From the sequence record OM386656.1: a DNA stretch of 64,000 nt; one strand, written 5' to 3'. The position numbers and the translations under genes were made by a program. Below are positions 10,768 to 46,941 of the stretch, piece by piece. The stretch is from Escherichia phage vB_EcoM_ESCO25. The notes under the pieces are model-generated. The model did not search any database, was not told the DNA's origin, and saw nothing but the letters and a program-made list of their open reading frames with translations. The number at the start of each line of letters is the position of its first letter. Positions within the stretch are counted from its first letter, which is position 1.

Positions 10768-10768
10768 A

Positions 10769-32846: not shown

Positions 32847-33011
32847 ATGATTTTAAACTTCATCATCAACTTGTGTTTGACATTGGGGTTACTCTGTGCA
32901 ATAGTATCCCCTTTGGTTGGTGAATATTGTTCTGAACTGGCGATGTTTATAGTTCTTGGTGCGGCTATTGCTAATATGTTTGTCGCTGCGATTTGTATGT
33001 TGTGGGAATAG
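32847..33011 (+). CDS. small hydrophobic membrane peptide (54 aa), not on ORF track
   Basis: Manual translation MILNFIINLCLTLGLLCAIVSPLVGEYCSELAMFIVLGAAIANMFVAAICMLWE; RBS aaggagag. Confidence 0.45.
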   Translation: MILNFIINLCLTLGLLCAIVSPLVGEYCSELAMFIVLGAAIANMFVAAICMLWE

Positions 33012-33022
33012 GAGGGAAGTTT

Positions 33023-33379
33023 ATGAAAAAACTAATCTTAGCCACATTGCTGGCTACCGTAAGCTTCACCACTTACGCTCAAAAATTTGTAGCAGTTAAA
33101 ACAGATATTGGTAAAGATGTTGTGATCACAGGCAACAAGTTTTACTATACACCTGGGAATGGTGTTCTAGAAGAGTGTAAAGATGTTGAGGCATATACGG
33201 GAAAAGAAGATAACACGGAACGTCCTTTTTATTCGATTATAGCTACTTGCAAAAATGAAATAGTAGCTATTAAACAATACAAAGATGCCCCTGGAGGAGA
33301 ATACTTATTAGTCAAGAATATTAAGAGTGAAAAAACTGCAAAGTTTACAGTAATTATTTTAAAAGGAGAAACGTTCTAA
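33023..33379 (+). CDS. secreted or periplasmic protein (signal peptide)
   Basis: MKKLILATLLATVSFTTYAQ signal peptide; RBS ggaggga. Confidence 0.55.
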   Translation: MKKLILATLLATVSFTTYAQKFVAVKTDIGKDVVITGNKFYYTPGNGVLEECKDVEAYTGKEDNTERPFYSIIATCKNEIVAIKQYKDAPGGEYLLVKNIKSEKTAKFTVIILKGETF

Positions 33380-34518
33380 TGAAATACACTATTTTTGGAG
33401 ATGTAGCTGTTGTAAATAAGGAATATGGCGTTGAAGCTAATAAACTTCCTGCTGGAGTTTGGGTTGTCAACTGCGATCCGCACGGTAACTACTCTTTAGT
33501 GCGTGGTGAAAGTTTCTCTCTTCCGAACACTCTTTATGGGGAAACTAAAGATCGCGCCGCACATGTTATTAAAACATTTGCTCGTCGTAGTAAAGAAGGT
33601 AAAAATACTGGGGTGTTACTGACAGGGACAAAAGGCAGTGGTAAGACGATGTTAGCTAAACTAATTAGCATGTCTCTAATGTCCACAGAAGGTTTAGGTA
33701 TTCCAACCATTTTGGTTACACAGCCTTACACAGATGCTGGCTTCTTAGAATTTATGAGTAAAATTACAGATCGGGCTGTTGTTTTATTTGACGAATTTGA
33801 TAAAGTGTACGCTAAGAAAGAAGATCAGGAAGCACTGTTGACCTTGTTGGATGGAACAGGAAGTGGGAATAAACTTTACATCCTCACTAAAAATAGTGGT
33901 TATATCTCGGAATATTTTGTAAACCGTCCTAGTCGTATCTACTACAGTTTCAATTACGATAAACTGTCTAGTGAAACTATGTTAGATTACTTGGATAAGA
34001 ACTTGGTAAATAAAAAGCACGTAGATAACTTCCAACGTTTATGGGATGTTAGCACAGAGTTGTCTTTCGATGTTATTCAAGGCATTGTAGAAGAATTGAA
34101 TTTCTATCCAAAAATGACTTTTAAAGAATGTCTTGAAATGATGGGTATTTCTTTAGGGAACGATGCTAAATGGAATGTGGCTTCTATCGTAGCTAATGGC
34201 AAAACCTTGAAGGTGAATTGGATCAATAACTGGCACGACTTCACCCCTACTAAGTTTTTGTCGGGTGCTTGTTCCCTGAACATCTATCTACAAAGTTTGA
34301 AAGATGATGAAGTGGAAGCAATGGAAACCAACAGTTATGTTATCCTGGATGAAGATGGTGATCCACATATTGATCTATGTGCAACGGCTGATGGTCTAAC
34401 TTGTGATCTGATTGAAGGTGGTAAGATTCTGGTTATGAGCACTACACCAGGAAACACTTTGCGAGTGGTGCTGGAGCCTGTAACACAACGTTCCACTACA
34501 CTTGGTAGCGTGTTCTAA
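33379..34518 (+). CDS. AAA+ ATPase
   Basis: 379 aa; Walker A LLTGTKGSGKTMLAK, Walker B VVLFDEFDK. Confidence 0.7.
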   Translation: MKYTIFGDVAVVNKEYGVEANKLPAGVWVVNCDPHGNYSLVRGESFSLPNTLYGETKDRAAHVIKTFARRSKEGKNTGVLLTGTKGSGKTMLAKLISMSLMSTEGLGIPTILVTQPYTDAGFLEFMSKITDRAVVLFDEFDKVYAKKEDQEALLTLLDGTGSGNKLYILTKNSGYISEYFVNRPSRIYYSFNYDKLSSETMLDYLDKNLVNKKHVDNFQRLWDVSTELSFDVIQGIVEELNFYPKMTFKECLEMMGISLGNDAKWNVASIVANGKTLKVNWINNWHDFTPTKFLSGACSLNIYLQSLKDDEVEAMETNSYVILDEDGDPHIDLCATADGLTCDLIEGGKILVMSTTPGNTLRVVLEPVTQRSTTLGSVF

Positions 34519-34523
34519 TAAAG

Positions 34524-34546
34524 ATGCCCCGCAAGGGGCATTTGTT
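34524..34546 (+). terminator. intrinsic terminator after the AAA ATPase gene
   Basis: ATGCCCC-gcaa-GGGGCAT hairpin followed by TTGTTAT. Confidence 0.55.
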
Positions 34547-34606
34547 ATGGAGGGATTTTAGTTATTCTTTTGTTGTAGGCTCGCACTAATAGCTAAAGGG
34601 GGAGGT

Positions 34607-36067
34607 GTGCCAAAAATAGTCACTTGGGAACAATATAAAACAGATATAAAACAAGCTTATCAAGGTAAGTCTTGGACTGTTGTAGATTATATTGAGCCGT
34701 GGAACGGCAATAAAACTAAACTTAGATGCATCTGTGCTCTGCATGGAGAATGGAAAACAACAAGCATAAATACCGCTAAACTAGGGAGGGGTTGTCCAGA
34801 ATGCGGTAGGGAGATTATAAGTAAAGCAGTATCTATAAACAAATCAAAAACCTGGGAGCAATATAAAGAAGAAGTGCAAACCACTTACAATCAGGCAGGT
34901 AAGTTTTGGACTGTTACAGGATGGCACGGAGAATGGAAAGGATGGAATACTAAACTGGTTTGTTGTTGTGCTTTACATGGGGAGTGGAGGTCTACTTCTA
35001 TATCTTCTGCGAAAAACGGGAGTGGATGCAGGAAGTGTATGGGAGAAGCAAACAGAGAAAGAACATCGATTGCATGGGAGAAACATAAAGAAGAAGTAGA
35101 AGAAGCTTATAAAGAAAAACCCTGGATTGTTAGAGGCTATGTGGAACCGTGGAACGGTTCCCGCACTAAGTTGATTTGTGAGTGTAAGGTTCATGGTCAA
35201 TGGTGCACTACCACTGTAAACAGTGCTAAACAAGGGACTGGATGCTACAGTTGTCAAAGAGAAATGACGAAACAAAGGAATACAATGGAGGATAAACAAC
35301 ATGTTGAAGATTTTATAAAAGCTTGTCCTGATAATGTAGAGCGTAAATATTATCGTAGCGATAGAGTAGATAGATTAGGTCGTCAGGTTTACTGGATTGT
35401 AGAATGTCCTATATGTGCAGAGGATGATTATTGTAAAGAAGGCTTATGCGATAATAAATTTGAGATGAAGATGAGTCATTTGAAAAGGGGTGGCCTTCCT
35501 TGCCGTTGTTCTAAATATTATCATTACACTCCTGAACAATGGGCCTACCGTATGACCAAAGCTTGCCAGGAACGAGGGGATCAATTTATAGGATTCATTG
35601 ATAAGGTAAGCAATAACAGCAAGTTTAAATATCTATGTAGGGAGCATGGAGAGCAAACGATCACACCTACCGATTATCTCAATGGGAAAGGTTGTCCAGG
35701 CTGTAAGAACAGAAATATGCAAGAATTTTACATCAATATTATTCTTGATGAGTACGGAGAAGACACGGGAGCTTACAAGTTGGGGATTGCAAAGGACAGT
35801 GATATCAGGATCAAAGGGCAGAATGCAAACAACAATTACTCTATGCGCCGTATAGCATTGTTCGATCTGCCGTCCTACCAAGCTTGCAGGGCGTTAGAGA
35901 GTAAGCTAAAGTCTAAGACTGATCAGATTCTACCGTCTATTGGCTGTGTAGAACGCTTGCACATGAAAGATGGTCATAGTGAAACCTTCCTGCGCGAGGA
36001 TTTGGCTATCGTCTTAAGTGCTATCAACCAAGCAGGTGGAATAATGAGAGAGGAGGAAACATGTTAG
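34607..36067 (+). CDS. Cys-rich tandem-repeat protein with C-terminal GIY-YIG/T5orf172-like region
   Basis: 486 aa; three ~70-aa repeats (W-E-Q-Y-K ... TKL-C-C-ALHGEW ... AK-G-GC-x-C) plus a fourth degenerate Cys module; C-terminal EFYINIIL...AYKLGIAKD...RRIALFDL resembles a GIY-YIG-like motif. GTG start. Confidence 0.5.
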   Translation: MPKIVTWEQYKTDIKQAYQGKSWTVVDYIEPWNGNKTKLRCICALHGEWKTTSINTAKLGRGCPECGREIISKAVSINKSKTWEQYKEEVQTTYNQAGKFWTVTGWHGEWKGWNTKLVCCCALHGEWRSTSISSAKNGSGCRKCMGEANRERTSIAWEKHKEEVEEAYKEKPWIVRGYVEPWNGSRTKLICECKVHGQWCTTTVNSAKQGTGCYSCQREMTKQRNTMEDKQHVEDFIKACPDNVERKYYRSDRVDRLGRQVYWIVECPICAEDDYCKEGLCDNKFEMKMSHLKRGGLPCRCSKYYHYTPEQWAYRMTKACQERGDQFIGFIDKVSNNSKFKYLCREHGEQTITPTDYLNGKGCPGCKNRNMQEFYINIILDEYGEDTGAYKLGIAKDSDIRIKGQNANNNYSMRRIALFDLPSYQACRALESKLKSKTDQILPSIGCVERLHMKDGHSETFLREDLAIVLSAINQAGGIMREEETC

Positions 36068-36426
36068 TTGACGTTCAAATTATGCGCAACGAAAGAATGG
36101 ACTTCTTTGAAGCAGTAGAGAAACATCTGATCAGATGGGACTATGAATTTGTTCCTGCTGGATGTGGACCAGTAGAGCATTTAGCGGAAGACGACGATGT
36201 ATACATGATCATTCGTCAAGTGTACCAGACAGACCAGTGTGAAGAAACTCCCGAACTGATTTTGTTTGAGTGTAAAGATCTTGCAAAATATTTTGACTAT
36301 GGCGGAAAAGAGGGTCATAATCTCTCCAGATACAATAAACGTCTACTTATCTTAGACTACATGCGGAACAACAAACACAAACTCATCGACGCAGACGCAG
36401 TTTATGGCTACTGGTGGATGGACTAA
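36061..36426 (+). CDS. hypothetical protein
   Basis: 121 aa ORF. Confidence 0.5.
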   Translation: MLVDVQIMRNERMDFFEAVEKHLIRWDYEFVPAGCGPVEHLAEDDDVYMIIRQVYQTDQCEETPELILFECKDLAKYFDYGGKEGHNLSRYNKRLLILDYMRNNKHKLIDADAVYGYWWMD

Positions 36427-36439
36427 CAAAGGAGAAACT

Positions 36440-36619
36440 ATGGCACGTTTAGCAGATCATGAAATCTTTAAACCTATTCTGAACCACTATGATGAACTTA
36501 AAGCAGTGTTGGATTGTTATAGAGAGGATGAAGAACGTTTGGAAGTCAATCTTAAGATAGTTCTGATGAAAGCTTTTCAAGACGGGCAAGCTAAAGTTTT
36601 AGAAGGCATGAAAAAATGA
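36440..36619 (+). CDS. hypothetical small protein
   Basis: Start trimmed to MARLADH with RBS aaaggagaa. Confidence 0.45.
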   Translation: MARLADHEIFKPILNHYDELKAVLDCYREDEERLEVNLKIVLMKAFQDGQAKVLEGMKK

Positions 36620-37158
36620 GAATAACTGATGAATATGTATTCTTCTTTTCACATAAAGATGTGTTTAGTAATTGGTATATTGCACCCTTTACAGAAACTG
36701 AACCAGGTTACAATGAGACTTTCTGTTGTGTTGAGCAATATATGATGTGGCGTAAGGCTTTGCTGTTCAAGGATCATGCGATTGCAGCAGCTATCCTTGA
36801 TCACTCAACTATACGTGACAACGAGAGGAAACAAGCATACTACAAACGTATGGGTCGAGCGGTATCTGGTTTTAATAATGATATGTGGGAAGAGAACCGT
36901 GAGCGTATTGTTATGCGAGGCTTATGCTTGAAATATGTACAGAATCCAGATTTGTATGCAGACTTACACCTTTACCAATACAAAACGTTTGTTGAAGCAA
37001 GTCCTTACGATAAGGTTTACGGTATTGGAATGGGAATGTATGAACCAGGGGTGCTAAACCCTGCTACCTGGAAAGGGCAGAATCTTTTAGGAAAATATCA
37101 TAATAAACTGATCGAAATACTTTTCCCAGACAAAATACCGCAAAGACGATATTTGTGA
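36616..37158 (+). CDS. NADAR (YbiA-like) domain protein
   Basis: 180 aa; FFFSHKDVFSNWY, CVEQYMMWRKALLF, RERIVMRGLCLKYVQNPDL and VEASPYDKVYGIGMG match the NADAR/DUF1768 signature. Confidence 0.7.
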   Translation: MRITDEYVFFFSHKDVFSNWYIAPFTETEPGYNETFCCVEQYMMWRKALLFKDHAIAAAILDHSTIRDNERKQAYYKRMGRAVSGFNNDMWEENRERIVMRGLCLKYVQNPDLYADLHLYQYKTFVEASPYDKVYGIGMGMYEPGVLNPATWKGQNLLGKYHNKLIEILFPDKIPQRRYL

Positions 37159-37213
37159 TATTTTAACTTTTTTCATTTTTAGAACAAAGGTGTCACTTTG
37201 TAGCACAGAAATA

Positions 37214-37249
37214 AGGCTCCTACAGCACCGTAGAGAGCCTGTTATTTTG
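37214..37249 (+). terminator. intrinsic terminator after the NADAR gene
   Basis: Nested hairpin AGGCTC-[CTAC-agcacc-GTAG]-a-GAGCCT followed by GTTATTTTG. Confidence 0.55.
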
Positions 37250-37400
37250 TCCTATACAAACCCTTGTCTTTTTCAGTTTGCATCACTAGGATTCGATCTG
37301 AGTGGGTTCCTGAAGGTTTACCAATAAGATTAAAGGTTATATCAAATTCCCACTATCTTTTATCTCAAAAATCCCTCAAATTATTTAAACTTTTTAAGAA

Positions 37401-37578
37401 TTTACAAAAGTGAAAGTTGAAAACCAAAATTTAAAGTTTAGGAAAATTATCTTAAAATATTAGATACAAAACAAAACTCAAAAGTCAAGGAAAATTTTAA
37501 AAATTTTGCGCGCCCACAGTATTTAAAGTTTTTTTGCTTTTACAAAAATGAAAGTACAAAAGCAAAATTTAAAGTTTA
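37401..37578. repeat. two ~40-bp AT-rich direct repeats (37401-37440 and 37539-37578)
   Basis: TTTACAAAAGTGAAAGTTGAAAACCAAAATTTAAAGTTTA versus TTTACAAAAATGAAAGTACAAAAGCAAAATTTAAAGTTTA, about 34/40 identical. Confidence 0.6.
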
Positions 37579-37600
37579 CAAAAATTTTTATGCAGGTGAA

Positions 37601-37707
37601 AATGAGAAGAGTTCTCATATGGAAATGCAAATGATAATGATTCGCATTTAAGTTTATAAATGAGATTGATTCTTATTTAATAAGGTAAATGACAATCATT
37701 CTCATTT
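37601..37707. promoter_or_regulatory. array of four ~20-bp AT-rich palindromes at ~29-bp spacing (operator or Fur-box-like)
   Basis: AATGAGAAgagTTCTCAT (37601), AATGATAATGATTCGCATT (37629, contains GATAATGAT), AATGAGATTGATTCTTATT (37658), AATGACAATCATTCTCATT (37687). Confidence 0.45.
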
Positions 37708-37966
37708 AGAGAATGACGCGCAGGGGCGGTGTTTGTCTCGCGCTCCCGTGTCCCCTCGCCATGTAATAAGAATAACAGATCCAGCCAGGAAAGCAAGCGA
37801 TTATTTTATCTTTACATTTCTTTACAAATATATAGCACCCAGCCTACCGGCGATCAACCTTCCAACCAGTGCCCCCTGGTATGTTAGCCCCGCCTTTACG
37901 CCGTGGGGTGGCGCTTCCTCTTCTGTATGTAAAACAGTATAAGCCCGATCCCTGGGCTTGTCAAGA

Positions 37967-38233
37967 TTATTTTTTGTTTTCTTGCCAGGATAGGACACCT
38001 AACCAAAAATACATATCGCCCCGCGCCCCTGGTGGTATCTTGCTTTCCCCGCCGCCACTGCAAGCCCATAGATAACCATTTGCGAACGTATCAAAATGAT
38101 CTATCTCTTCCACCTTATGATCGCCCAGGTTGAGAACGGTTTCAACCTTTAAGCCCGTTGCGCTTGCTACCTGGTGCACCGTGCCGCCTTGCCAGCCCAA
38201 TGAGTGCATAAGGTGTAATGTAGTATTTGTCAT
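37967..38233 (-). CDS. possible hypothetical protein in an otherwise non-coding GC-rich island
   Basis: 88 aa ORF with weak RBS (aaggg); no recognisable promoter; low confidence. Confidence 0.3.
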   Translation of the reverse strand: MTNTTLHLMHSLGWQGGTVHQVASATGLKVETVLNLGDHKVEEIDHFDTFANGYLWACSGGGESKIPPGARGDMYFWLGVLSWQENKK

Positions 38234-38419
38234 GATATCGCCCTTTCTTTGTTGTGCGCCCTGGTTGGCGCGGTAGAAAGATAATAGCCCTTTTCTTTAT
38301 ATATAGCAAGCAAAAAGAAAATAAAAAAGATTGAAAAATGGTTGACGTTAACCAGGCGGCGGCGTAGTATTCATCTTGTAGGGCGGCAATGGTGCCGCTC
38401 ACTATTTGGAGTTAAGATC

Positions 38420-38617
38420 ATGGCAACATTGCACATTGTGGCGAAAGCTGGACAAATCAACGTAGTGGTAAACGGTTTTACTGAGTTCAGTCACCCCCAG
38501 GATGATCATGAAACGGTTTTATCTTTCATTGATTCCCTGTTAGAAATGGGAGTCATTACAGAAGACCAGCACGCTACAAAATGCAAGCGCGTTAATCAAA
38601 TCGCAGGAATAGAATAA
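38420..38617 (+). CDS. hypothetical small protein (cassette gene)
   Basis: Start set at ATG after cassette hairpin (MATLHIVAKAG...); the track ORF began upstream of the promoter. Confidence 0.5.
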   Translation: MATLHIVAKAGQINVVVNGFTEFSHPQDDHETVLSFIDSLLEMGVITEDQHATKCKRVNQIAGIE

Positions 38618-39314: not shown

Positions 39315-39873
39315 TATGGGCCGCGAATATGTGATCCAGTCTTGGGTAAAACATGAAGCAGATGATCCGCGCATCATTCCCGATCATCTTATCGATGAAT
39401 CCACGGGATATAGCGGTGAGCAAATAGGTAACAGATTAGCACGTAGTAACGGCAACGTAAAAGCGCGTTATGTGCGCCCTGGTTGGCTGGCAAATGGTAA
39501 CGCTGATTTATCCAGTGCGGAAGATGCGAGCGACGGCGCGAAAGATAATCCTTTGTACAAAGTTGATCCGGCTTTTCGTGTCCTGGATGAATACCCCAGC
39601 AAGATAGCGGCGCTCGATCAGGCCCTGGAAAGTAAGCGCATCACCTGGACCGCTTACAACATGGCAAAAAACGTACTTGATGGTAAATTGATTCAAGCTG
39701 AAAGAAAATTAGCCAAAATTGCAGCCATAGCCCAGGAGGAAGACGAGGAGACAACGGAAGAGGAAGAGTACGAAGAGATCCCGCCGTTGTTGTGTGTTGA
39801 TGCTTTTCCTGATTATCAGCCGACAGAGGAAGAAAAAAGGATCGCACTAGAAAACTTTGAAAATAGTCTTTGA
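39307..39873 (+). CDS. hypothetical protein, acidic C-terminus
   Basis: 188 aa ORF; EEDEETTEEEEYEE tail. Confidence 0.5.
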   Translation: MVNMGREYVIQSWVKHEADDPRIIPDHLIDESTGYSGEQIGNRLARSNGNVKARYVRPGWLANGNADLSSAEDASDGAKDNPLYKVDPAFRVLDEYPSKIAALDQALESKRITWTAYNMAKNVLDGKLIQAERKLAKIAAIAQEEDEETTEEEEYEEIPPLLCVDAFPDYQPTEEEKRIALENFENSL

Positions 39874-39955
39874 CATATCGCCGCCACTGGCATAATATTT
39901 ACCACGTAGGGCGGCAATGGTGCCGCTCATAGTGAAATTATGCAAGAGGCTTACA

Positions 39956-40051
39956 ATGATTAATAAAGAAAATAGCTTGACGGTTGGAACGATTAACGCT
40001 ATCATTCTAGCCGTTCCATTTTGGATTGTAGTAGCGGCTATTATTTTCTAA
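39956..40051 (+). CDS. hydrophobic micro-ORF (31 aa), not on ORF track
   Basis: MINKENSLTVGTINAIILAVPFWIVVAAIIF, downstream of cassette 39870..39927. Confidence 0.35.
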   Translation: MINKENSLTVGTINAIILAVPFWIVVAAIIF

Positions 40052-41229: not shown

Positions 41230-41321
41230 AAAGCATTGACAGCACGAATAAAAAGAGTAAACTGTATTACATCAAGGCGGCGGAATGGTCCACCGCCTAA
41301 CAAAGAGAAGAGGAAAACATC

Positions 41322-41489
41322 ATGATCACTTTCGCTACCCGTGAAGCCGCTCGCAACGTTGCCCGTAAAGTTAACGCCGCCAACCTGGGCGCTACGCTTA
41401 AAGCCCCTGTAAAAGATGAATCAGGAAAATGGATCTTCCCTGGTCTGCGTCATGCTGACAAGTTAGGTACTTTAAGCCTTAAAAAATAA
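41322..41489 (+). CDS. hypothetical small basic protein (55 aa), not on ORF track
   Basis: MITFATREAARNVARKVNAANLGATLKAPVKDESGKWIFPGLRHADKLGTLSLKK; shares the first 15 coding nt and RBS context with the next gene. Confidence 0.45.
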   Translation: MITFATREAARNVARKVNAANLGATLKAPVKDESGKWIFPGLRHADKLGTLSLKK

Positions 41490-41563
41490 TCGTTGACTTT
41501 TCGTTATAGCGCCTTATAATGGGCGCTATAGAGAAGAGAAACCACTACTAACAAGGAAACATC

Positions 41564-41785
41564 ATGATCACTTTCGCTATTGTCGCCGTTGTCGCTGGTC
41601 AGGTTTACATAAACGATACATTCACCACAGAAGACAAGGCCGCAGGAGACATAACCGCCGTTTACAATGAGTGCAAGGCAGTAGAAAGGATGTTAGCGCC
41701 TTGTATGCTAATGAGTGAACGCCAGGACGGGATAACAGTATTTACTAACATTGAAACAGGGTACCAAATGGTAGTAACAAAATAA
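41564..41785 (+). CDS. hypothetical small protein (cassette gene)
   Basis: 73 aa ORF; starts MITFA, identical 5' junction to the previous gene. Confidence 0.5.
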   Translation: MITFAIVAVVAGQVYINDTFTTEDKAAGDITAVYNECKAVERMLAPCMLMSERQDGITVFTNIETGYQMVVTK

Positions 41786-41864
41786 AGCTTGACACGGATT
41801 TAATTTTTAGTAAACTGTTACACGTAGGGCGGGAATAGTTCCCGCTCAAAAAGAGAGAAAGACC

Positions 41865-42218
41865 ATGAAAGCACAAAATGCAATTAAAGAGTACATCCTT
41901 GCCGCTATCGATTTTAATGATTACGGTATTACAACCGAAAAAGAGAAGATCGCGGAATTGATGCGCCGTTTTAATTCCGAGTACTGGTACCCTGATAACC
42001 AATCACGTTTTAATTATAGTATTGTTAAAGCACTTGCATCATGGTTACAAGGCTTGCCATCAGATATCAATATCGCTTTCGAATATTGGGAAATTGATCG
42101 CCTGTTAACATCCTGGGGATACATTAAAGAGAATAGCAGCGATGATAAAATCCAACGAGAAAGGGAAAATTATTGGCTTTATATTGCAGGCGTGATCCTT
42201 GCTTGCTCTTATGAATGA
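41865..42218 (+). CDS. hypothetical protein (cassette gene)
   Basis: 117 aa ORF. Confidence 0.5.
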   Translation: MKAQNAIKEYILAAIDFNDYGITTEKEKIAELMRRFNSEYWYPDNQSRFNYSIVKALASWLQGLPSDINIAFEYWEIDRLLTSWGYIKENSSDDKIQRERENYWLYIAGVILACSYE

Positions 42219-42297
42219 TAAACCTTGACAATTTTACAAAACAGTTTAAATTAACAATATAGCGGCAATGGTGCCGCTCATATGAAGAGGAAACAAA

Positions 42298-42444
42298 ATG
42301 AATACATCTAATCGCGCAGAAAAAATTCAATCTTCCAAGATCCGCAAGGCCTGGAACGAGGAAGTGATCCGCAAAGGCGACAAGCGCAATAAAACAAAGC
42401 GTGGGAAGAGTGACAAATATAATTGGATGGATTTAGAGGATTAA
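42298..42444 (+). CDS. hypothetical small basic protein (48 aa), not on ORF track
   Basis: MNTSNRAEKIQSSKIRKAWNEEVIRKGDKRNKTKRGKSDKYNWMDLED; followed by a terminator. Confidence 0.4.
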   Translation: MNTSNRAEKIQSSKIRKAWNEEVIRKGDKRNKTKRGKSDKYNWMDLED

Positions 42445-42452
42445 CATAACAA

Positions 42453-42479
42453 GGGGCGCACCAAGCGCCCTTTCTTTTT
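42453..42479 (+). terminator. intrinsic terminator (copy 1 of a repeated terminator)
   Basis: GGGGCGCACCAAGCGCCC followed by TTTCTTTTT; identical to the copy at 48656. Confidence 0.65.
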
Positions 42480-42500
42480 ACATGTAGAGGATAAACAAAG

Positions 42501-42686
42501 ATGACTTTAAGCGAGCTTAAAACAGCCTACAACGCAACGTTAAAAATAGCCGTGCGTTACCGTGACGAATACGGTTTTATTGCGCAGGGCGTGATCCTGG
42601 GCTTTTCTGACGATGGTTTGATCTATGTTGATGCACATCACAATAAGGTTAAACCTGAAAACGTCATTAGCATAAAATATCTTTAA
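42501..42686 (+). CDS. hypothetical small protein
   Basis: 61 aa ORF; RBS agagga. Confidence 0.45.
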   Translation: MTLSELKTAYNATLKIAVRYRDEYGFIAQGVILGFSDDGLIYVDAHHNKVKPENVISIKYL

Positions 42687-42770
42687 AAGTGGTTGACACC
42701 ATAACCGGACCTGTTAAACTGTATTACATCAGGCGGGGAATAGTTCCCACCATACAAAAAGGTAAATATT

Positions 42771-42977
42771 ATGATCACCGCAAAACAAGAAAAAATCATT
42801 ATCGACGTTGCAGCCGTTGCTGCTATTGCTATTATTGGATCTTATTATGACACCGCGCGTCCTTCCTCCTTGCATGAGGTCGCCGCCGTTGCATCAGTTG
42901 GCGTACTGTTTTACGTTGGTAAACGCTATTTATCACCAATGATTAACAAGCTGACACCGTGGAAAAATAAAGGTTGA
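42771..42977 (+). CDS. small membrane protein (cassette gene)
   Basis: 68 aa; hydrophobic IIIDVAAVAAIAIIGSYY. Confidence 0.5.
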   Translation: MITAKQEKIIIDVAAVAAIAIIGSYYDTARPSSLHEVAAVASVGVLFYVGKRYLSPMINKLTPWKNKG

Positions 42978-43048
42978 TCCTGTTTTATATTGTGTTATAG
43001 TTATCGTGTAGGGCGGCAATGGTGCCGCGCCCTTTTGAGGATGCAATC

Positions 43049-43333
43049 ATGAGTAAAGCTAACACCGTGCTAATGTTTTCCCTGATTAATGATTCCGCTT
43101 ACTTGTCCAACATGACGCAGGAGGGTAACACATTAACGGCAACATTCACCAATAAGCTTGACCGGGTGATCATCGTCTCACTGAAAACAGTTAGTAAAGG
43201 CTTTTACTCGTTAGCTTATCATTGGATCACCGATACCGATGAGACAAGCCAGGACTATAGCACCCCTTTCCCTGAATCAATGGCACGGGAGGTCATCGCC
43301 GCCGTTGTAAATGATGGTTTGTTTACTGCATAA
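43049..43333 (+). CDS. hypothetical protein (cassette gene)
   Basis: Start trimmed to MSKANTVLMF. Confidence 0.5.
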   Translation: MSKANTVLMFSLINDSAYLSNMTQEGNTLTATFTNKLDRVIIVSLKTVSKGFYSLAYHWITDTDETSQDYSTPFPESMAREVIAAVVNDGLFTA

Positions 43334-43431
43334 AATAATTTAGAAAAAGGCTTGCAATCATTTTGAGATAGTGTATATTTAATTCATAGGGCGGCGGGAA
43401 TAGTTCCCAAAGCAAACGAGAGGATTACACG

Positions 43432-43551
43432 ATGAGCAAGTACACAGTAGAATACACGGTAGAGAATCCGGCAGTATCCGAAGGTAAAAAGATGACATTT
43501 GCCATCAGTATAATCGCTTTCGTTGTCACTATCTTATCAATCATCTTATAA
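43432..43551 (+). CDS. hydrophobic micro-ORF (39 aa), not on ORF track
   Basis: MSKYTVEYTVENPAVSEGKKMTFAISIIAFVVTILSIIL after cassette 43352..43408. Confidence 0.4.
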   Translation: MSKYTVEYTVENPAVSEGKKMTFAISIIAFVVTILSIIL

Positions 43552-43561
43552 GGTGCACACC

Positions 43562-43723
43562 ATGAAAACAACAGATATTATCAAAGAGATCGCCCTTGCC
43601 GCTGACGTTGAGATCGAGGAAGTGATCGCGCTCAATCTTACAGAAAACGATCTGCGCAACTATGAAGCGGAAAGCGTGAAAGCAAGTGGCGCGGTCCTGG
43701 CATATAATCCGGCTAACAAATAG
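43562..43723 (+). CDS. hypothetical small protein
   Basis: Start trimmed to MKTTDIIKEI. Confidence 0.45.
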   Translation: MKTTDIIKEIALAADVEIEEVIALNLTENDLRNYEAESVKASGAVLAYNPANK

Positions 43724-43803
43724 TTTGACAAGCTGAATCAACCTGATAAGATGTATCACATAGGGGCGACAAGCGCCCCGCCTAACAGAAGAGAGAAAAA
43801 ATC

Positions 43804-44082
43804 ATGACCATCGTTAAATTAACAACCGAAGAAATGAAAACAATGTTAACCACTAATTTACAAAATTGGAAAATTGGTGTTGACGTTGAAACAGTGTGCA
43901 AGTTGAACGACAAACTAACACCGGACGACATTGAAACGATCATCCGTGCAGATTTCTATGATGCTTTATACGATGATTCCACAGTCCTTGAAACGATGTT
44001 GGATAACGCTTGGATCAATCCCGATTTGGCGGCTTATGGTCATCTTGCCTTTGAAGCCATCCATAATGTTTATAATCGTTAA
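43804..44082 (+). CDS. hypothetical protein (cassette gene)
   Basis: 92 aa ORF. Confidence 0.5.
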   Translation: MTIVKLTTEEMKTMLTTNLQNWKIGVDVETVCKLNDKLTPDDIETIIRADFYDALYDDSTVLETMLDNAWINPDLAAYGHLAFEAIHNVYNR

Positions 44083-44092
44083 GGGGGATAAC

Positions 44093-44203
44093 ATGAATCC
44101 GAAAGATATGCAAGCATGGAAAGGGTACGACGATCTAAGCGCCTTGCGCAATAAGTCAAGCCGTAACCTTAGACGGTTGGAAGCAAAGAAAAAGAAAAAA
44201 TAG
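44093..44203 (+). CDS. hypothetical small basic protein (36 aa)
   Basis: MNPKDMQAWKGYDDLSALRNKSSRNLRRLEAKKKKK; RBS aaggggga. Confidence 0.4.
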   Translation: MNPKDMQAWKGYDDLSALRNKSSRNLRRLEAKKKKK

Positions 44204-44281
44204 TTTGACAAGTCCGCCTAGTCTGATAATATGTATCTTGTAGGGCGGCAATGGTGCCGCTCACAAGAAGAGAGAAAAATC

Positions 44282-44566
44282 ATGAAAATCACAAAAAGCC
44301 TGACTAATTATGCAGCACGTCGCGGATTATGTTTAACCGTTGAAAACTTAGGGAAAGAAGACTTTTTGTGTTTTTGGGAGCTTGAAAATGATTGCGAGTG
44401 GATGTTTTCTTATTCTATCTGCGAAGATCAAAACGGTTGTTTGTTAACCTGGCGCGGTAATATCTATTTACCGGAAGAAATTAAAGAAGAGTTACCAGGT
44501 ACGATCATGACAGAGAGACAGCTTAAGGAAGTGATCAATTTTGTAGGGCAAAACATTAAAAAATAA
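44282..44566 (+). CDS. hypothetical protein (cassette gene)
   Basis: Start trimmed to MKITKSLTNY. Confidence 0.5.
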   Translation: MKITKSLTNYAARRGLCLTVENLGKEDFLCFWELENDCEWMFSYSICEDQNGCLLTWRGNIYLPEEIKEELPGTIMTERQLKEVINFVGQNIKK

Positions 44567-44651
44567 TTTGACAGTAGGCAAACAACGTAGTAAAGTTTAT
44601 TACATAGGGCGGCGGAATGGTCCACCGCTCACAACAGAAGAGAAACAAATC

Positions 44652-44822
44652 ATGATCCCGACTATGTTTTATGTATCGCGCAAAGGTCATAATATTTTTT
44701 GGTCTGAAGATTTAAATGAAGCCATGACGTTTGCCCGTGATCGTGTCGCTATCGGTGGCGTTAACATCACCGTAACCGATGAAAACGGCATTGAATACTA
44801 TAACGGCAACGATGAAGAGTAA
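44652..44822 (+). CDS. hypothetical small protein (cassette gene)
   Basis: Start trimmed to MIPTMFYVSRKG. Confidence 0.5.
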   Translation: MIPTMFYVSRKGHNIFWSEDLNEAMTFARDRVAIGGVNITVTDENGIEYYNGNDEE

Positions 44823-44866
44823 TCAACAAGGCGGGATTAATCCCGCCTGTATTAAAGGGTAATATA

Positions 44867-45013
44867 ATGAAAACTTTCAACGCAACAGCCTCGACAATTG
44901 GTTATATTATTACAGTGCAAGCCGTGGATCTGGTAGCAGCAACAAACAAGATTAAAAGAATGATCCCGATAGGCAGTGAATTTTCCGTTTGGGAAGTAAA
45001 AAATAAATCTTGA
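44867..45013 (+). CDS. hypothetical small protein (48 aa), not on ORF track
   Basis: MKTFNATASTIGYIITVQAVDLVAATNKIKRMIPIGSEFSVWEVKNKS; preceded by hairpin GGCGGGATTAATCCCGCC. Confidence 0.4.
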   Translation: MKTFNATASTIGYIITVQAVDLVAATNKIKRMIPIGSEFSVWEVKNKS

Positions 45014-45089
45014 CGATAATTTGTTATCTGATAGAATGTATTTCGTAGGGCGGGGCAATAAGGCAACGCCCATTAATGAGGGTAGAATC

Positions 45090-45194
45090 ATGTTAGAGAA
45101 AATTTTCACGGTTGTAGTAGTTGGCCTGGCGTTATCGGTTGGAGTGGTTGCAACTATGGCTAACATGATCCTATCTTCCCACGGTATCGGTTAA
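45090..45194 (+). CDS. hydrophobic micro-ORF (34 aa), not on ORF track
   Basis: MLEKIFTVVVVGLALSVGVVATMANMILSSHGIG after cassette 45010..45070. Confidence 0.4.
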   Translation: MLEKIFTVVVVGLALSVGVVATMANMILSSHGIG

Positions 45195-45195
45195 G

Positions 45196-45420
45196 GTGAA
45201 ACAAATGATCACGAACAAAACAGGCAAAACGGAATTTTTACGCGGCTTACAAGTTGGTAAGCCTGAGATCTGGCATTGCACGAAGTCCGCGCATAATGAA
45301 ATGAAAGATTTCACCGCTACTTTACAACGTGTTAAAATATCTATCACACAGAAAAAAGCCTTGTTGGTAGTAGAAAACGAGATCCCGCAAACTATTATTA
45401 TTGTCGAGCGTACAGCATGA
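45196..45420 (+). CDS. hypothetical small protein
   Basis: 74 aa ORF (GTG start; ATG at 45205 is an alternative). Confidence 0.45.
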   Translation: MKQMITNKTGKTEFLRGLQVGKPEIWHCTKSAHNEMKDFTATLQRVKISITQKKALLVVENEIPQTIIIVERTA

Positions 45421-45803
45421 AAACAGAAATCATTAACGAAATCATCAACGGCTATAAAGAAGCCTTTATTTTTGCTGAATCAGCAAGGGATCATGAAGGT
45501 AATTTTATTGATAACTTAGACGATTATGATTTTTCTCCTAGCGCGGACGAACGGATCGCCCAGGATGTAACAGCCTTTATTAATGCTAATCTTGCCGCTA
45601 TCTCTGAGGCAATGAGCGACGGCGCAACAGCCAACCAGATCGGGAATGATTTACATTTTACCCGTAACAGTCACGGCGTAGGCTTTTGGGATCGCCCTGA
45701 AATATACACCACTAACACGGCGAACCGCCTAACCAATGCAGCTAAGTTTATGCCGAACGTGTCGGCTTACATTGGTGAAGATAATTTGATTTATATTGAA
45801 TAA
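45417..45803 (+). CDS. hypothetical protein
   Basis: 128 aa ORF; ATGA overlap. Confidence 0.5.
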   Translation: MKTEIINEIINGYKEAFIFAESARDHEGNFIDNLDDYDFSPSADERIAQDVTAFINANLAAISEAMSDGATANQIGNDLHFTRNSHGVGFWDRPEIYTTNTANRLTNAAKFMPNVSAYIGEDNLIYIE

Positions 45804-45884
45804 AAAGTATTGACACAGATCGCCAGTGTGCTAATATTTACCACGTAGGGCGGCAATGGTGCCGCCGATAATGAGGAAAGTAAA

Positions 45885-46184
45885 ATGGAAACTATCGCTA
45901 TTGTTACCGTAGAAAAACTGGTTGTTGGTGATGTATTCGCGTTAATGGTGCCTAACAGCAGCAAACTGGGTGCTTATGAAGTAATGGATCATAAAAATGA
46001 ATCATTTGGCGACGGTTGCACAATGGCGGTAAAATCTTTAAAGGATGGAATCATCCGCCAGGCTAACTGGCACAAAGGGAATCAAGTCGGTTTAATATCA
46101 GCTAATTTCTTGCCAGAAGAGCAAACGTTAGACCAACTATCAGGCGGTAAGACGTTAGCCGAACTACTGGAAACAGCGATCTAA
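45885..46184 (+). CDS. hypothetical protein (cassette gene)
   Basis: 99 aa ORF. Confidence 0.5.
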   Translation: METIAIVTVEKLVVGDVFALMVPNSSKLGAYEVMDHKNESFGDGCTMAVKSLKDGIIRQANWHKGNQVGLISANFLPEEQTLDQLSGGKTLAELLETAI

Positions 46185-46228
46185 TCAACAAAGGGGCGGC
46201 AACGCCCCACATCAGAAAGGAAAAGATT

Positions 46229-46465
46229 ATGAGTATTGCAACAGTATTAAACGCCGTTAAAACCGCTGAATCATCCGGCTTGCATGTTGAGCTTATAGAT
46301 CAACCAGGTGGCGATCTCCTTGTCCAGGTTTACCCGCCGAAAGTAGGGGATGATTATTATTGGGCTTATTCTGATACGTTCGAACAAGTAGACACGAAAG
46401 CGATCACGGCTTTTATTTTAAAAGCTATTGAAGAAAATAACTTTCATCATAACATCAATCAATAA
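46229..46465 (+). CDS. hypothetical protein
   Basis: 78 aa ORF after hairpin GGGGCGGCAACGCCCC. Confidence 0.5.
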   Translation: MSIATVLNAVKTAESSGLHVELIDQPGGDLLVQVYPPKVGDDYYWAYSDTFEQVDTKAITAFILKAIEENNFHHNINQ

Positions 46466-46519
46466 ACCATAAGCGGGGCGGTAACGCCCCATTAAACGCA
46501 ATAGGAAGAGGATAGGCGC

Positions 46520-46804
46520 ATGAAAAAGATGATCGCAGTAGTTGCCCTGGTTGTTGGTATTAACGCGCCTGTAATGGCGAAAGAGTTGCCAGAATCCATC
46601 ACGTTAACCGATATTAACGCAGTGAACCGGATCGGCGTTAATTATCGCCTATACCTTGCCGCTAAAACTTTCCAGGACGGCACAACAGAGTACTACGGAT
46701 TCGAGGGTGTCCGGTGCGGTGAGCTTGCACGCGACCTTAAGGAAGATCCAGACCTTGAGGCCATACCGATGACCGTAAACGGTAAAGCCCAGGTAAACCG
46801 CTAA
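46520..46804 (+). CDS. secreted protein (signal peptide)
   Basis: MKKMIAVVALVVGINAPVMA signal peptide. Confidence 0.55.
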   Translation: MKKMIAVVALVVGINAPVMAKELPESITLTDINAVNRIGVNYRLYLAAKTFQDGTTEYYGFEGVRCGELARDLKEDPDLEAIPMTVNGKAQVNR

Positions 46805-46806
46805 CC

Positions 46807-46941
46807 ATGAGAAAGGTAATCATCACAATGGGGATCGTAGTAGCAACGCTGGCGCTTATCCCCTTCATGGTTGAATATGTGCTGATTAATGTTGTCCTGG
46901 TAGTCAGTGACCTATTGGAAACGGTTGGCACCTGGTTTTAA
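46807..46941 (+). CDS. hydrophobic micro-ORF (44 aa), not on ORF track
   Basis: MRKVIITMGIVVATLALIPFMVEYVLINVVLVVSDLLETVGTWF. Confidence 0.4.
   Translation: MRKVIITMGIVVATLALIPFMVEYVLINVVLVVSDLLETVGTWF

What the first reader, a model, noticed from the sequence alone, without database searches (positions are those of the whole stretch)
32847..46941. Several unannotated hydrophobic micro-ORFs (31-54 aa) embedded among the small genes
ORFs below the 60-aa track threshold encode single- or double-helix hydrophobic peptides with plausible RBS and cassette context: 32847-33011, 39956-40051, 43432-43551, 45090-45194, 46807-46941. Small membrane peptides of this kind in phage early regions often act as host-takeover factors, holin-like modulators or superinfection-exclusion proteins.
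Basis: inference. Interest (0 to 1): 0.45.

Follow-up and report, generated by a model that had tools for sequence, protein, structure and literature searches.

The report
Small membrane-protein genes in phage
The five tiny hydrophobic reading frames are real, conserved genes for small membrane proteins in the host-promoter-driven accessory region of a phAPEC8-like E. coli phage, but public phage records already list them as proteins of unknown function, so the finding is sound but ordinary.

Summary
The window is a Phapecoctavirus (phAPEC8-like E. coli myophage), 99.8% identical to vB_EcoM_REC. All five ORFs exist at the stated coordinates. Each has at least one predicted membrane helix: ORF1 has two, the others one.

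Hydrophobicity alone is not beyond chance: 14 of 223 ATG-ORFs of 30-59 aa in the window score as high, and 7 of those lie inside larger genes. Conservation settles it. Each ORF recurs in 70-165 phage records. Each was intact in all 13 loci fetched at first. Each has its lowest pN/pS in the stated frame (0.32-0.54), and homologues down to 40-50% identity keep length and hydrophobic profile.

ORF2, ORF3 and ORF4 are each the first cistron behind a sigma-70-type promoter plus 5' hairpin. ORF5 is translationally coupled to a secreted 94-aa protein. ORF1 co-varies with an adjacent secreted 118-aa protein.

"Unannotated" is only a track-threshold effect. Four are annotated CDSs in the nearest record, ORF5 in others, and four match full-length PHROG families.

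Function is untested. The best inference is early-made inner-membrane peptides that bind envelope proteins (exclusion or anti-defence). A holin-like role is unlikely. Interest is low to moderate.

The parts
32847..33011 (+). ORF1: 54-aa gene for a two-helix membrane hairpin (segments 5-21 and 34-52, loop SPLVGEYCSE). It lies inside a tightly packed operon.
   Evidence: The ORF and its AGGAG ribosome binding site are. It is annotated as REC_00028. It matches phrog_27459 full length, E 1.4e-38. It occurs in 70 phage records, 6 of them at 40-47% identity. dN/dS is 0.27-0.32. The frame test is and the membrane segments.
33023..33379 (+). 118-aa protein with an N-terminal signal peptide (MKKLILATLLATVSFTTYA|Q). 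It is the likely partner of ORF1.
39870..39898 (+). Sigma-70-type promoter (TTGACA-17-TAATAT) that drives ORF2.
   Evidence: Found by the promoter scan. It is conserved in REC, Mt1B1_P17 and SKA64.
39909..39928 (+). 5'-leader hairpin GGGCGGCAATGGTGCCGCTC, a member of the repeated GTAGGGCGG hairpin family.
   Evidence: Repeat families D2, D3 and D5 are. The fold gives -14.7 kcal/mol.
39956..40051 (+). ORF2: 31-aa gene with a polar N-terminus (MINKENSLTVGT) and a C-terminal membrane helix. It is the only ORF between two promoters.
   Evidence: Sequence context is. It is annotated as REC_00040. It occurs in 113 phage records. It occupies different genomic slots in different genera, and its C-terminal length varies from 31 to 36 aa. 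dN/dS is 0.07-0.46. It has no PHROG match.
43352..43379 (+). Probable promoter TTGCAA-16-TATATT that drives ORF3.
   Evidence: Read by eye from the sequence. It is conserved in SKA64, Mt1B1_P17, REC, phiWec188 and PsgM04F. It is weaker than the others.
43391..43413 (+). 5'-leader hairpin upstream of ORF3 (weak, -7.8 kcal/mol).
   Evidence: Fold. It belongs to repeat family D7.
43432..43551 (+). ORF3: 39-aa gene with a 20-aa polar N-terminal head and a C-terminal membrane anchor (23-39). It is the first of two cistrons.
   Evidence: It is annotated as REC_00054. It matches phrog_10979 ('membrane protein'), E 5.9e-23. 63 phage records are at least 60% identical. Justusliebigvirus homologues at 39-42% identity keep the 39-aa length. 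dN/dS is 0.23-0.38.
43562..43723 (+). 53-aa second cistron of the ORF3 cassette.
   Evidence: It starts 10 nt after ORF3's stop. It matches phrog_35944.
45010..45037 (+). Sigma-70-type promoter TTGACG-16-TAGAAT with TG before the -10. It drives ORF4.
   Evidence: Found by the promoter scan. A promoter is present at this position in 10 of 11 relatives.
45048..45071 (+). 5'-leader hairpin GGGCGGGGCAATAAGGCAACGCCC upstream of ORF4.
   Evidence: The fold gives -16.8 kcal/mol, z -3.8, and 0 of 200 shuffles fold as well. It is conserved with ORF4 across subfamilies.
45090..45194 (+). ORF4: 34-aa single-pass peptide with a conserved C-terminal motif ATMANxILSSxGIG. It is the first of three cistrons.
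   Evidence: It is annotated as REC_00061. It matches phrog_14631, E 2.1e-22. It occurs in 156 phage records, all full length, spanning Stephanstirmvirinae and Vequintavirinae. It was present in every fetched locus that covers the region, even where the neighbouring genes differ. dN/dS is 0.04-0.31.
46520..46804 (+). 94-aa protein with a signal peptide (MKKMIAVVALVVGINAPVMA|K). It sits upstream of ORF5 and is its partner.
   Evidence: It matches phrog_9845. It is adjacent to ORF5 in every locus where both were found. The AlphaFold2 model has pLDDT 67 and gave no specific fold match.
46807..46941 (+). ORF5: 44-aa peptide with N-terminal MRK, one membrane helix (4-22), a further hydrophobic stretch and a conserved acidic tail SDLLETVGTWF. 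It is the fourth gene of a five-gene operon.
   Evidence: It matches phrog_16005, E 8.6e-30. It occurs in 158 phage records, 121 of them full length, and most leave it unannotated. It is annotated in Mt1B1_P17 and PsgM04F. dN/dS is 0.30-0.50 in divergent pairs. It starts 2 nt after, or overlaps, the upstream stop. A second tail allele exists in phage inoa, and phage V18 carries an in-frame fusion.
47153..47182 (+). Intrinsic terminator that closes the operon containing ORF5. The operon's promoter is at 45810-45837.
   Evidence: Both sites come from the scan.

Best explanation
The five ORFs are real protein-coding genes of a phAPEC8-like phage. Each encodes a very small inner-membrane protein. 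ORF1 is a two-helix hairpin. ORF2 and ORF3 have a short polar head on a C-terminal anchor. ORF4 and ORF5 have an N-terminal helix and a short conserved tail.

They are transcribed by unmodified host RNA polymerase from consensus sigma-70 promoters, and therefore early. This step is inferred. ORF2, ORF3 and ORF4 are each the first cistron after a promoter-plus-hairpin element. ORF1 and ORF5 lie inside operons next to genes for secreted proteins, and ORF5 is translationally coupled to its neighbour.

The most likely mode of action, also inferred, is that of bacterial small membrane proteins and T4 Imm. The peptide inserts into the cytoplasmic membrane and binds a larger membrane or periplasmic protein through its helix and its conserved tail. 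That would change the envelope of the infected cell, most plausibly to block secondary infection or a membrane-based host defence.

My sub-confidences are:
- real translated genes: about 0.9
- membrane-inserted: about 0.85
- expressed early: about 0.7
- partner binding rather than membrane damage: about 0.5
- exclusion or anti-defence role specifically: about 0.3
For: - The ORFs, their hydrophobicity and their ribosome binding sites are.
- The genes are annotated in near-identical and related records.
- Four of five give full-length PHROG matches.
- tblastn finds 70, 113, 165, 156 and 158 phage records for ORF1 to ORF5.
- All homologues in the 13 loci fetched at first are open, with conserved length and start codon.
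- Pairwise dN/dS is 0.04-0.5 in divergent pairs.
- The stated frame has the lowest pN/pS of the six frames and no stop codon in any homologue.
- Homologues at 40-53% identity keep the same hydrophobic architecture.
- The micro-ORFs are retained at least as widely as their neighbours in a mosaic region.
- Sigma-70 promoters are over-represented (76 found against 54.5 +/- 7.8 in shuffles), and about 20 TTGACA promoters lie on the plus strand at 38.3-48.2 kb.
- The promoter, hairpin and Shine-Dalgarno motif stay with ORF4 while the flanking genes change.
- T4 Imm is a 9.3-kDa membrane protein that blocks genome entry by binding the tape measure protein (bioRxiv 10.64898/2026.03.06.709160).
Against: - There is no direct evidence of transcription, translation or membrane insertion. 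I found no Ribo-seq, proteomic or transcriptomic data for this phage group.
- No similarity to any characterised protein family was found.
- Fold searches of the two secreted partners were unspecific and rested on mediocre models.
- For ORF3 and ORF5 the antisense -2 frame is also open, with pN/pS nearly as low. Strand assignment there rests on context.
- ORF5 is the least constrained (dN/dS 0.3-0.5, and higher in close pairs) and has no Shine-Dalgarno motif.
Confidence: 0.6

Rival explanations
1. The peptides are membrane-damaging agents in their own right, like Hok- or TisB-type toxins or pinholin-like peptides. They would depolarise or permeabilise the inner membrane to shut the host down, and would not bind a specific partner.
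For: They are very short and very hydrophobic, with a Kyte-Doolittle maximum of 2.45-2.69, which is similar in size to type I toxins (from my own knowledge). No partner protein has been identified.
Against: Early expression of a depolarising peptide would drain the energy the phage needs for replication. The conserved polar heads and tails suggest specific recognition: ATMANxILSSxGIG in ORF4, SDLLETVGTWF in ORF5, KKENSLTVGT in ORF2, and the 20-aa head of ORF3. ORF1 and ORF5 pair stably with genes for secreted proteins. No homologue occurs in 5,426 E. coli genomes.
Confidence: 0.15
2. They are lysis-timing components: holins, antiholins or pinholins.
For: They are small proteins with one or two membrane helices, and ORF1 (54 aa, two helices) is in the size range of small holins. 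An automated annotation in phAPEC8_ev052 labels a nearby 68-aa gene 'bifunctional anti-holin/holin'.
Against: That label is on window 42771-42977, which is not one of the five, and its hydrophobic segments are not predicted to insert into the membrane. All five lie behind consensus sigma-70 promoters in an accessory region where no endolysin or spanin is annotated in REC. None has the charged, hydrophilic C-terminal tail typical of holins as summarised in the rV5 paper (PMC3606486). ORF2 and ORF3 end within the membrane helix. They are gained and lost between close relatives, which is unlike a lysis gene.
Confidence: 0.07
3. They are not functional proteins. They could be chance ORFs in conserved non-coding spacers. 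Alternatively they could be leader ORFs whose translation matters only for coupling or for stability of the downstream mRNA, and not for the peptide made.
For: Hydrophobic micro-ORFs arise by chance in this AT-rich genome: 14 of 223, at least 7 of them artefacts. ORF3 and ORF4 end 10 nt before the next gene, and ORF5 is coupled to its neighbours. The antisense frame is also open for ORF3 and ORF5.
Against: Substitutions concentrate at third codon positions, and pN/pS is lowest in the stated frame for all five. Amino-acid motifs, length and hydrophobic profile persist at 40-53% identity, where the DNA is saturated at synonymous sites. ORF2 has no downstream cistron in its cassette. ORF4 is kept when its downstream gene is replaced or lost.
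Confidence: 0.06

Closest known systems
PHROG families phrog_27459, phrog_10979, phrog_14631 and phrog_16005, and the hypothetical-protein CDSs in GenBank records (REC_00028, REC_00040, REC_00054 and REC_00061 of OM386667; QNJ49177.1 of MT496970)
   Same: These are the same genes. The profile matches are full length, E 1e-22 to 1e-38, and the CDSs in the nearest relative are identical.
   Different: Nothing differs. The entries carry no function: three PHROGs are 'unknown function' and phrog_10979 is only labelled 'membrane protein'. ORF2 has no PHROG family. ORF5 is left unannotated in most records.
T4 Imm, the superinfection-exclusion membrane protein, with the periplasmic protein Spackle (Sp)
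   Same: Both are small membrane proteins made by a virulent myovirus that act at the envelope. Imm is a 9.3-kDa membrane protein that binds the incoming tape measure protein (bioRxiv 10.64898/2026.03.06.709160). Sp is an early periplasmic protein that inhibits the gp5 lysozyme (PMC7677548, abstract). The pairs ORF1 with the 118-aa protein and ORF5 with the 94-aa protein likewise combine a membrane peptide with a secreted protein.
   Different: There is no sequence similarity: no significant Pfam match. The peptides here are 2-3 times shorter. Exclusion activity is untested. In T4, imm and sp are not an adjacent coupled pair (from my own knowledge).
Bacterial small membrane-protein regulators such as AcrZ, MgrB, MgtS and CydX (from my own knowledge)
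   Same: They are 30-50 aa single-pass peptides that work by binding a larger membrane protein. ORF2 to ORF5 have the same size and architecture.
   Different: Those are host-encoded and these are phage-encoded. The only Pfam trace is ORF4 against the CydX-like family PF08173, at E 0.45 and 11 bits against a cutoff of 26 bits. That is not significant.
PhiNM1 Gp11, a small membrane protein found in a screen of early-gene products of a Staphylococcus aureus phage
   Same: It is a small phage membrane protein that acts on host envelope processes; it blocks cell division by inhibiting peptidoglycan synthesis (PMC11237401, title and abstract).
   Different: The phage, the host and the sequence are unrelated. 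It is only a precedent for this kind of function.
PeSL cassettes (promoter-early stem-loop) of T4-type phages
   Same: Both are repeated units of a near-consensus sigma-70 promoter plus a G/C-rich stem-loop. In both, the units flank small orphan genes in a hyperplastic region and sit where close relatives differ by insertions or deletions of whole genes (PMC2839356 and PMC4122927; compare).
   Different: Here the hairpin lies downstream of the -10 box, at the predicted 5' end of the mRNA, and has no U-tract. In T4-type phages the stem-loop is described as a terminator or attenuator for upstream transcription. The phage lineages are also unrelated (Stephanstirmvirinae and Vequintavirinae, not T4-like). 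Recombination at these elements was not tested here.

Membership tests
PHROG small-protein families (phrog_27459, phrog_10979, phrog_14631, phrog_16005) | A full-length, significant match to the family profile | tested here: met
   ORF1 1.4e-38, ORF3 5.9e-23, ORF4 2.1e-22 and ORF5 8.6e-30, each covering the whole profile. ORF2 has no family.
Protein-coding gene, as opposed to a chance ORF | The reading frame is kept open, and non-synonymous change is suppressed in that frame, across diverged relatives | tested here: met
   no stop codons in any homologue, pN/pS 0.32-0.54 and lowest in frame +1, and length conserved at 40-53% identity. The one rearranged copy is the in-frame fusion in V18.
Integral membrane peptide | At least one segment of about 17-21 residues predicted to insert into the membrane | tested here: met
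   the Kyte-Doolittle maximum is 2.45-2.69, and the summed apparent free energy is negative for one segment (two in ORF1). This is a prediction only; no dedicated topology predictor was available.
Holin / antiholin | Membrane helices plus a charged, hydrophilic C-terminal tail | tested here: not met
   the C-termini are MLWE, AAIIF, LSIIL, SSHGIG and ETVGTWF. None is a basic or highly charged tail, and ORF2 and ORF3 end within the helix.
Holin / antiholin | Location in a lysis cassette next to an endolysin or spanin, with late expression | tested here: not met
   no lysis gene is annotated within about 17 kb in the near-identical REC record, and the genes lie behind consensus sigma-70 promoters. 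Timing itself was not measured.
T4 Imm superinfection-exclusion family | Sequence similarity to Imm, which would appear as a Pfam match | tested here: not met
   no significant Pfam hit for any of the five peptides.
T4 Imm superinfection-exclusion family | Blocks genome entry of a superinfecting phage | not testable with these tools
   This needs plating-efficiency assays on cells that express the peptide.
T4-type PeSL cassette | A repeated unit of a strong sigma-70-like promoter and an adjacent stem-loop, flanking orphan genes in a plastic region | tested here: met
   Searches show the repeated units.
T4-type PeSL cassette | The stem-loop acts as a terminator or attenuator of upstream transcription and is placed ahead of the promoter | tested here: not met
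   the hairpin begins about 10 nt downstream of the -10 hexamer and has no U-run. Terminator activity could not be measured.
Type I toxin-antitoxin toxin | A small hydrophobic toxin with an overlapping antisense RNA, usually encoded in bacterial chromosomes or plasmids | tested here: inconclusive
   No Rfam family is found anywhere in the window, and there is no DNA match in 5,426 E. coli genomes. Antisense transcription was not testable.

The most novel reading that the evidence does not exclude
ORF2 and ORF4, and perhaps ORF3, may be plug-in membrane effectors. Each would travel as the sole or leading cargo of a self-contained promoter-hairpin mini-cassette that is shuffled within and between two myovirus subfamilies (Stephanstirmvirinae and Vequintavirinae). 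The pairs of a secreted protein with a membrane peptide (ORF1 with the 118-aa protein, ORF5 with the 94-aa protein, and the ORF2 homologue with a 119-aa protein in Klebsiella phage 05F01) would then be two-component envelope systems that exclude competing phages or disarm membrane-embedded host defences. That would extend PeSL-like modular shuffling beyond T4-type phages and define new families of anti-phage or anti-defence micro-proteins.
Probability: 0.2. Interest if true: 0.6.

Novelty: already known. Interest (0 to 1): 0.27.

Why it matters
Small proteins are often lost by length cut-offs in gene calling. ORF5 shows this: it is conserved in about 158 phage genomes, yet most records leave it unannotated. 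If these peptides act on the cell envelope, they would be candidates for superinfection-exclusion or anti-defence factors in phAPEC8-, phi92- and rV5-like phages, which are widely considered for therapy against pathogenic E. coli. They would also be compact tools for probing membrane proteins. As it stands, the result is mainly a sanity check. The genes are real, they are catalogued, and they have no known function.

Tried and rejected
- **Family searches.** Pfam, NCBIfam and PHROGs gave no characterised family for the five peptides or their neighbours. The faint Pfam hits (CydX-like family PF08173, DUF7396, Tom5; E 0.05-0.45) fall far below their cutoffs, and I rejected them.
- **Large protein database.** Queries must be at least 40 aa, so ORF2, ORF3 and ORF4 could not be searched. 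ORF5 returned only 28 unnamed proteins from the same phage group.
- **Rfam.** There is no family in the whole window.
- **Hairpin consensus.** RNAalifold on 19 hairpin copies predicted no consensus pairs, because the sequence-based alignment does not register stems of different lengths. The hairpins are supported only by their recurrence and by single-sequence folds.
- **Host genomes.** There is no DNA match in 5,426 E. coli genomes.
- **Literature.** I found no transcriptomic, Ribo-seq or functional data for these genes or this phage group.
- **Longer ORF versions.** The 44-aa form of ORF2 (ATG at 39917) and the 52/57-aa forms of ORF4 (ATG 45036, TTG 45021) were rejected. Their extra codons overlap the conserved promoter -10 box and the leader hairpin.
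- **'Anti-holin/holin' label.** It belongs to another gene, window 42771-42977.


Full report
**Identity of the window**

Megablast of 32000-48000 against 50,697 phage records gives 99.8% identity over 100% of the query to Escherichia phages vB_EcoM_REC (OM386667) and vB_EcoM_ESCO37. Both belong to the genus Phapecoctavirus, subfamily Stephanstirmvirinae. Partial, mosaic matches extend to about 250 further records of Phapecoctavirus, Justusliebigvirus (phi92-like) and Vequintavirinae (rV5-like). GC skew changes sign near 30 kb, and from about 31 kb onwards essentially all genes are on the plus strand.

**Check of the observation**

All five ORFs are present at the stated coordinates, each with an ATG start and a TAA or TAG stop. 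Their products are:
- ORF1: MILNFIINLCLTLGLLCAIVSPLVGEYCSELAMFIVLGAAIANMFVAAICMLWE
- ORF2: MINKENSLTVGTINAIILAVPFWIVVAAIIF
- ORF3: MSKYTVEYTVENPAVSEGKKMTFAISIIAFVVTILSIIL
- ORF4: MLEKIFTVVVVGLALSVGVVATMANMILSSHGIG
- ORF5: MRKVIITMGIVVATLALIPFMVEYVLINVVLVVSDLLETVGTWF

The Kyte-Doolittle 19-residue maximum is 2.45-2.69. A Hessa-type scale, with values taken from memory, predicts two insertable segments in ORF1 and one in each of the others. The second hydrophobic stretch of ORF5 is not predicted to span the membrane.

ORF1 to ORF4 have AGGAG- or GAGG-type Shine-Dalgarno motifs 6-9 nt upstream of the start. ORF5 has none. It starts 2 nt after the stop of the preceding gene.

**Is it more than chance?**

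Hydrophobicity by itself is not. Of 223 ATG-initiated ORFs of 30-59 aa in the six frames of the window, 14 (6%) are equally hydrophobic. Seven of the eight on the minus strand are embedded out of frame in larger ORFs, so they are artefacts. All six on the plus strand lie in gaps between genes at 31.8-47 kb. These are the five listed plus 31883-32059, a 58-aa gene.

Conservation is what decides the question:
- tblastn finds ORF1 in 70 records, ORF2 in 113, ORF3 in 165 (63 at 60% identity or more), ORF4 in 156 (all full length) and ORF5 in 158 (121 full length).
- In the 13 related loci fetched at first, every homologue is an intact ORF with a conserved start and length. This includes homologues at only 40-53% amino-acid identity: ORF1 in phiWec179, phiWec188 and PsgM04F; ORF3 in Justusliebigvirus; ORF4 in Vequintavirus navn; ORF2 in Klebsiella phage 05F01.
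- Nei-Gojobori dN/dS in divergent pairs is 0.27-0.32 for ORF1, 0.07-0.46 for ORF2, 0.23-0.38 for ORF3, 0.04-0.31 for ORF4 and 0.30-0.50 for ORF5.
- Among the six frames, the stated frame has the lowest pN/pS for all five (0.32-0.54) and no stop codon in any sequence.
- The register-sharing antisense frame comes second, as expected. For ORF3 and ORF5 it is also open, so strand assignment there also rests on context.
- The partial-coverage tblastn hits for ORF5 have two causes. One is a second C-terminal allele that is still 44 aa long (phage inoa). The other is an in-frame deletion in phage V18 that fuses ORF5 to the next gene.

**Annotation status**

The ORFs are 'unannotated' only with respect to the 60-aa display threshold. 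REC annotates ORF1 to ORF4 as hypothetical proteins REC_00028, REC_00040, REC_00054 and REC_00061. ORF5 is annotated in Mt1B1_P17, PsgM04F, vB_EcoM_01, EP57, ETEC-TG and others. It is left out of REC and of most records. Four of the five match full-length PHROG families at E 1e-22 to 1e-38, and only phrog_10979 carries a label ('membrane protein').

**Genomic context**

The stretch from 38.3 to 48.2 kb is an array of mini-cassettes. Each has these parts in order: a near-consensus sigma-70 promoter (TTGACA, 16-17 nt, TAnnnT, often with TG before the -10), a conserved GTAGGGCGG motif that opens a G/C-rich hairpin, a Shine-Dalgarno motif, and one to five short genes. Promoter-like sites are enriched over shuffles: 76 found against 54.5 +/- 7.8 expected.

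Each micro-ORF sits as follows:
- **ORF2** is the only ORF between the promoters at 39870 and 40060.
- **ORF3** is the first of two cistrons behind TTGCAA-16-TATATT.
- **ORF4** is the first of three cistrons behind the promoter at 45010. Its leader hairpin is unusually stable (-16.8 kcal/mol, z -3.8).
- **ORF5** is the fourth gene of a five-gene operon that runs from the promoter at 45810 to the terminator at 47153-47182.
- **ORF1** lies in a tightly packed operon upstream of an ATPase gene.

Across relatives, ORF4 keeps its promoter, hairpin and Shine-Dalgarno motif while the genes on either side are replaced or lost. ORF2 occupies different slots. It has its own cassette in Phapecoctavirus. 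It follows another gene in Justusliebigvirus. In Klebsiella phage 05F01 its CDS overlaps by 4 nt the end of a gene for a 119-aa signal-peptide protein. In a presence and identity matrix over 39 genes, the micro-ORFs are retained at least as broadly as their neighbours.

**Modules with secreted proteins**

ORF5 always directly follows a 94-aa protein that has a signal peptide. It is either 2 nt beyond that gene's stop or overlaps it, and this holds in Vequintavirinae too.

ORF1 is followed by a 118-aa signal-peptide protein. Both drop to 39-47% identity in phiWec188, PsgM04F and phiWec179, while the flanking genes stay at 80-84%. That pattern indicates a two-gene allelic module. In Justusliebigvirus the same slot holds an unrelated 57-aa two-helix protein and a 145-aa hydrophobic protein.

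**Mechanism**

What is shown:
- The ORFs are conserved coding sequences.
- Their products are predicted to insert into the membrane.
- Host-type promoters and ribosome binding sites lie upstream.

What is inferred:
- They are transcribed early by unmodified host RNA polymerase.
- The peptides insert into the inner membrane. The MRK at the N-terminus of ORF5 and the KK that precedes the ORF3 anchor suggest a cytoplasmic N-terminus.
- They act by binding a larger envelope protein.

The conserved short polar motifs argue for specific recognition rather than generic membrane damage. These motifs are ATMANxILSSxGIG in ORF4, SDLLETVGTWF in ORF5, KKENSLTVGT in ORF2, and VEYTVENPAxxEGKK in ORF3 (VQYSVINPAxxEGRK in its Justusliebigvirus homologues). 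The pairing with secreted proteins points the same way.

The closest functional precedents are T4 Imm, bacterial small membrane-protein regulators, and PhiNM1 Gp11. T4 Imm is a 9.3-kDa membrane protein that binds the incoming tape measure protein.

A lysis role is unlikely. The promoters are of the host type, no lysis genes are annotated nearby in REC, the peptides lack charged C-terminal tails, and the genes are variably present. None of these functions was or could be tested here.

**Comparison with known systems, and novelty**

The genes are the same as existing database entries, so their existence is already known. Their function is not. They belong to the known kind 'small phage-encoded membrane proteins of accessory early regions'.

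The surrounding architecture resembles the PeSL cassettes of T4-type phages: a sigma-70 promoter plus a stem-loop flanking orphan genes in hyperplastic regions (PMC2839356, PMC4122927). It differs in two ways. The hairpin lies downstream of the -10 box, at the mRNA 5' end, and has no U-tract. The phage lineage is also unrelated. I found no description of this architecture for phAPEC8-, phi92- or rV5-like phages. The rV5 genome paper reports only 33 consensus promoters (PMC3606486).

**Verdict**

The finding is ordinary and already catalogued. Its residual interest lies in the promoter-hairpin mini-cassettes and in the modules that pair a secreted protein with a membrane peptide.

Noticed in passing
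window 38300-48200 (+): This stretch is an array of about 20 mini-cassettes, roughly one per 470 bp. Each has a near-consensus sigma-70 promoter, then a conserved GTAGGGCGG motif that opens a G/C-rich hairpin at the predicted mRNA 5' end, then a Shine-Dalgarno motif and one to five small genes. It resembles the PeSL elements of T4-type phages, but the hairpin lies downstream of the promoter and the phage lineage is unrelated.
   Followed up: partly
window 41229-41322, compared with L001 (REC) 9730-10775: REC carries a 951-bp insertion of three extra single-gene cassettes (REC_00044 to REC_00046), inserted between two cassettes of the window. This is whole-cassette gain or loss between genomes that are 99.8% identical.
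   Followed up: partly
It is 58 aa with one strongly predicted membrane helix and a second marginal one, and it is REC_00024 and phrog_22639. It is conserved in Phapecoctavirus at 64-100% identity.
   Followed up: partly
window 42771-42977 (+): A 68-aa gene (phrog_30003) that is labelled 'bifunctional anti-holin/holin' in phAPEC8_ev052. Its two hydrophobic stretches are weak (summed apparent free energy +2.1 and +5.1 kcal/mol), so the label looks like an unreliable automatic call.
   Followed up: partly
window 44093-44203 (+); A-run near 44190-44200: A 36-aa, very basic micro-gene ends in KKKKK. REC has one more A in the terminal A-run (7 instead of 6), which changes the C-terminus to KKKKKIV. 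This is a homopolymer length difference between near-identical phages.
   Followed up: partly
window 37160-38420: About 1.2 kb holds no plus-strand gene. It contains AT-rich direct repeats (37377-37448 and 37515-37586, 82% identical), a locally G+C-rich part, the only minus-strand ORF of the region (37967-38233, 88 aa, annotated in relatives), and a strong minus-strand promoter-like site at 37964-37936. No tRNA or Rfam match was found.
   Followed up: no
window 34607-36067 (+): A 486-aa protein, annotated 'endonuclease' or 'homing endonuclease' in relatives, has three internal repeats of about 75 aa (DNA repeats at 34625, 34853 and 35075). Each repeat carries a CxxHGEW...GxGCxxC-like motif. 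Its length varies between relatives, from 326 to 486 aa.
   Followed up: no
L015 (phage V18) 701-890; L016 (phage inoa) 701-835: In V18 a deletion fuses the first 36 codons of the ORF5 homologue in frame to the C-terminal part of the downstream 63-aa gene. In inoa, ORF5 keeps 44 aa but has a different tail (SDLVLYINSLF).
   Followed up: yes
window 45090-45194, compared with L006 (pangalan) and L007 (navn): ORF4 is 100% identical in amino acids (4 synonymous differences) between this Phapecoctavirus and Vequintavirus pangalan, although the surrounding 590 bp are only 88% identical. Another Vequintavirus, navn, carries a 53%-identical allele behind a different leader. So there are at least two ORF4 alleles, and cassette exchange between subfamilies is possible.
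   Followed up: partly
window 48700-50000: A stretch poor in ORFs, with negative GC skew and several minus-strand promoter-like sites. It contains a hydrophobic minus-strand micro-ORF (49053-49190, 45 aa) that is not embedded in any larger ORF. The corresponding stretch is unannotated in SKA64.
   Followed up: no
window 32877-32905 (+), inside ORF1: A promoter-like site (TTGACA-17-AATAGT, with TG before the -10) lies within the ORF1 coding sequence, upstream of the 118-aa secreted-protein gene. It may be chance.
   Followed up: no
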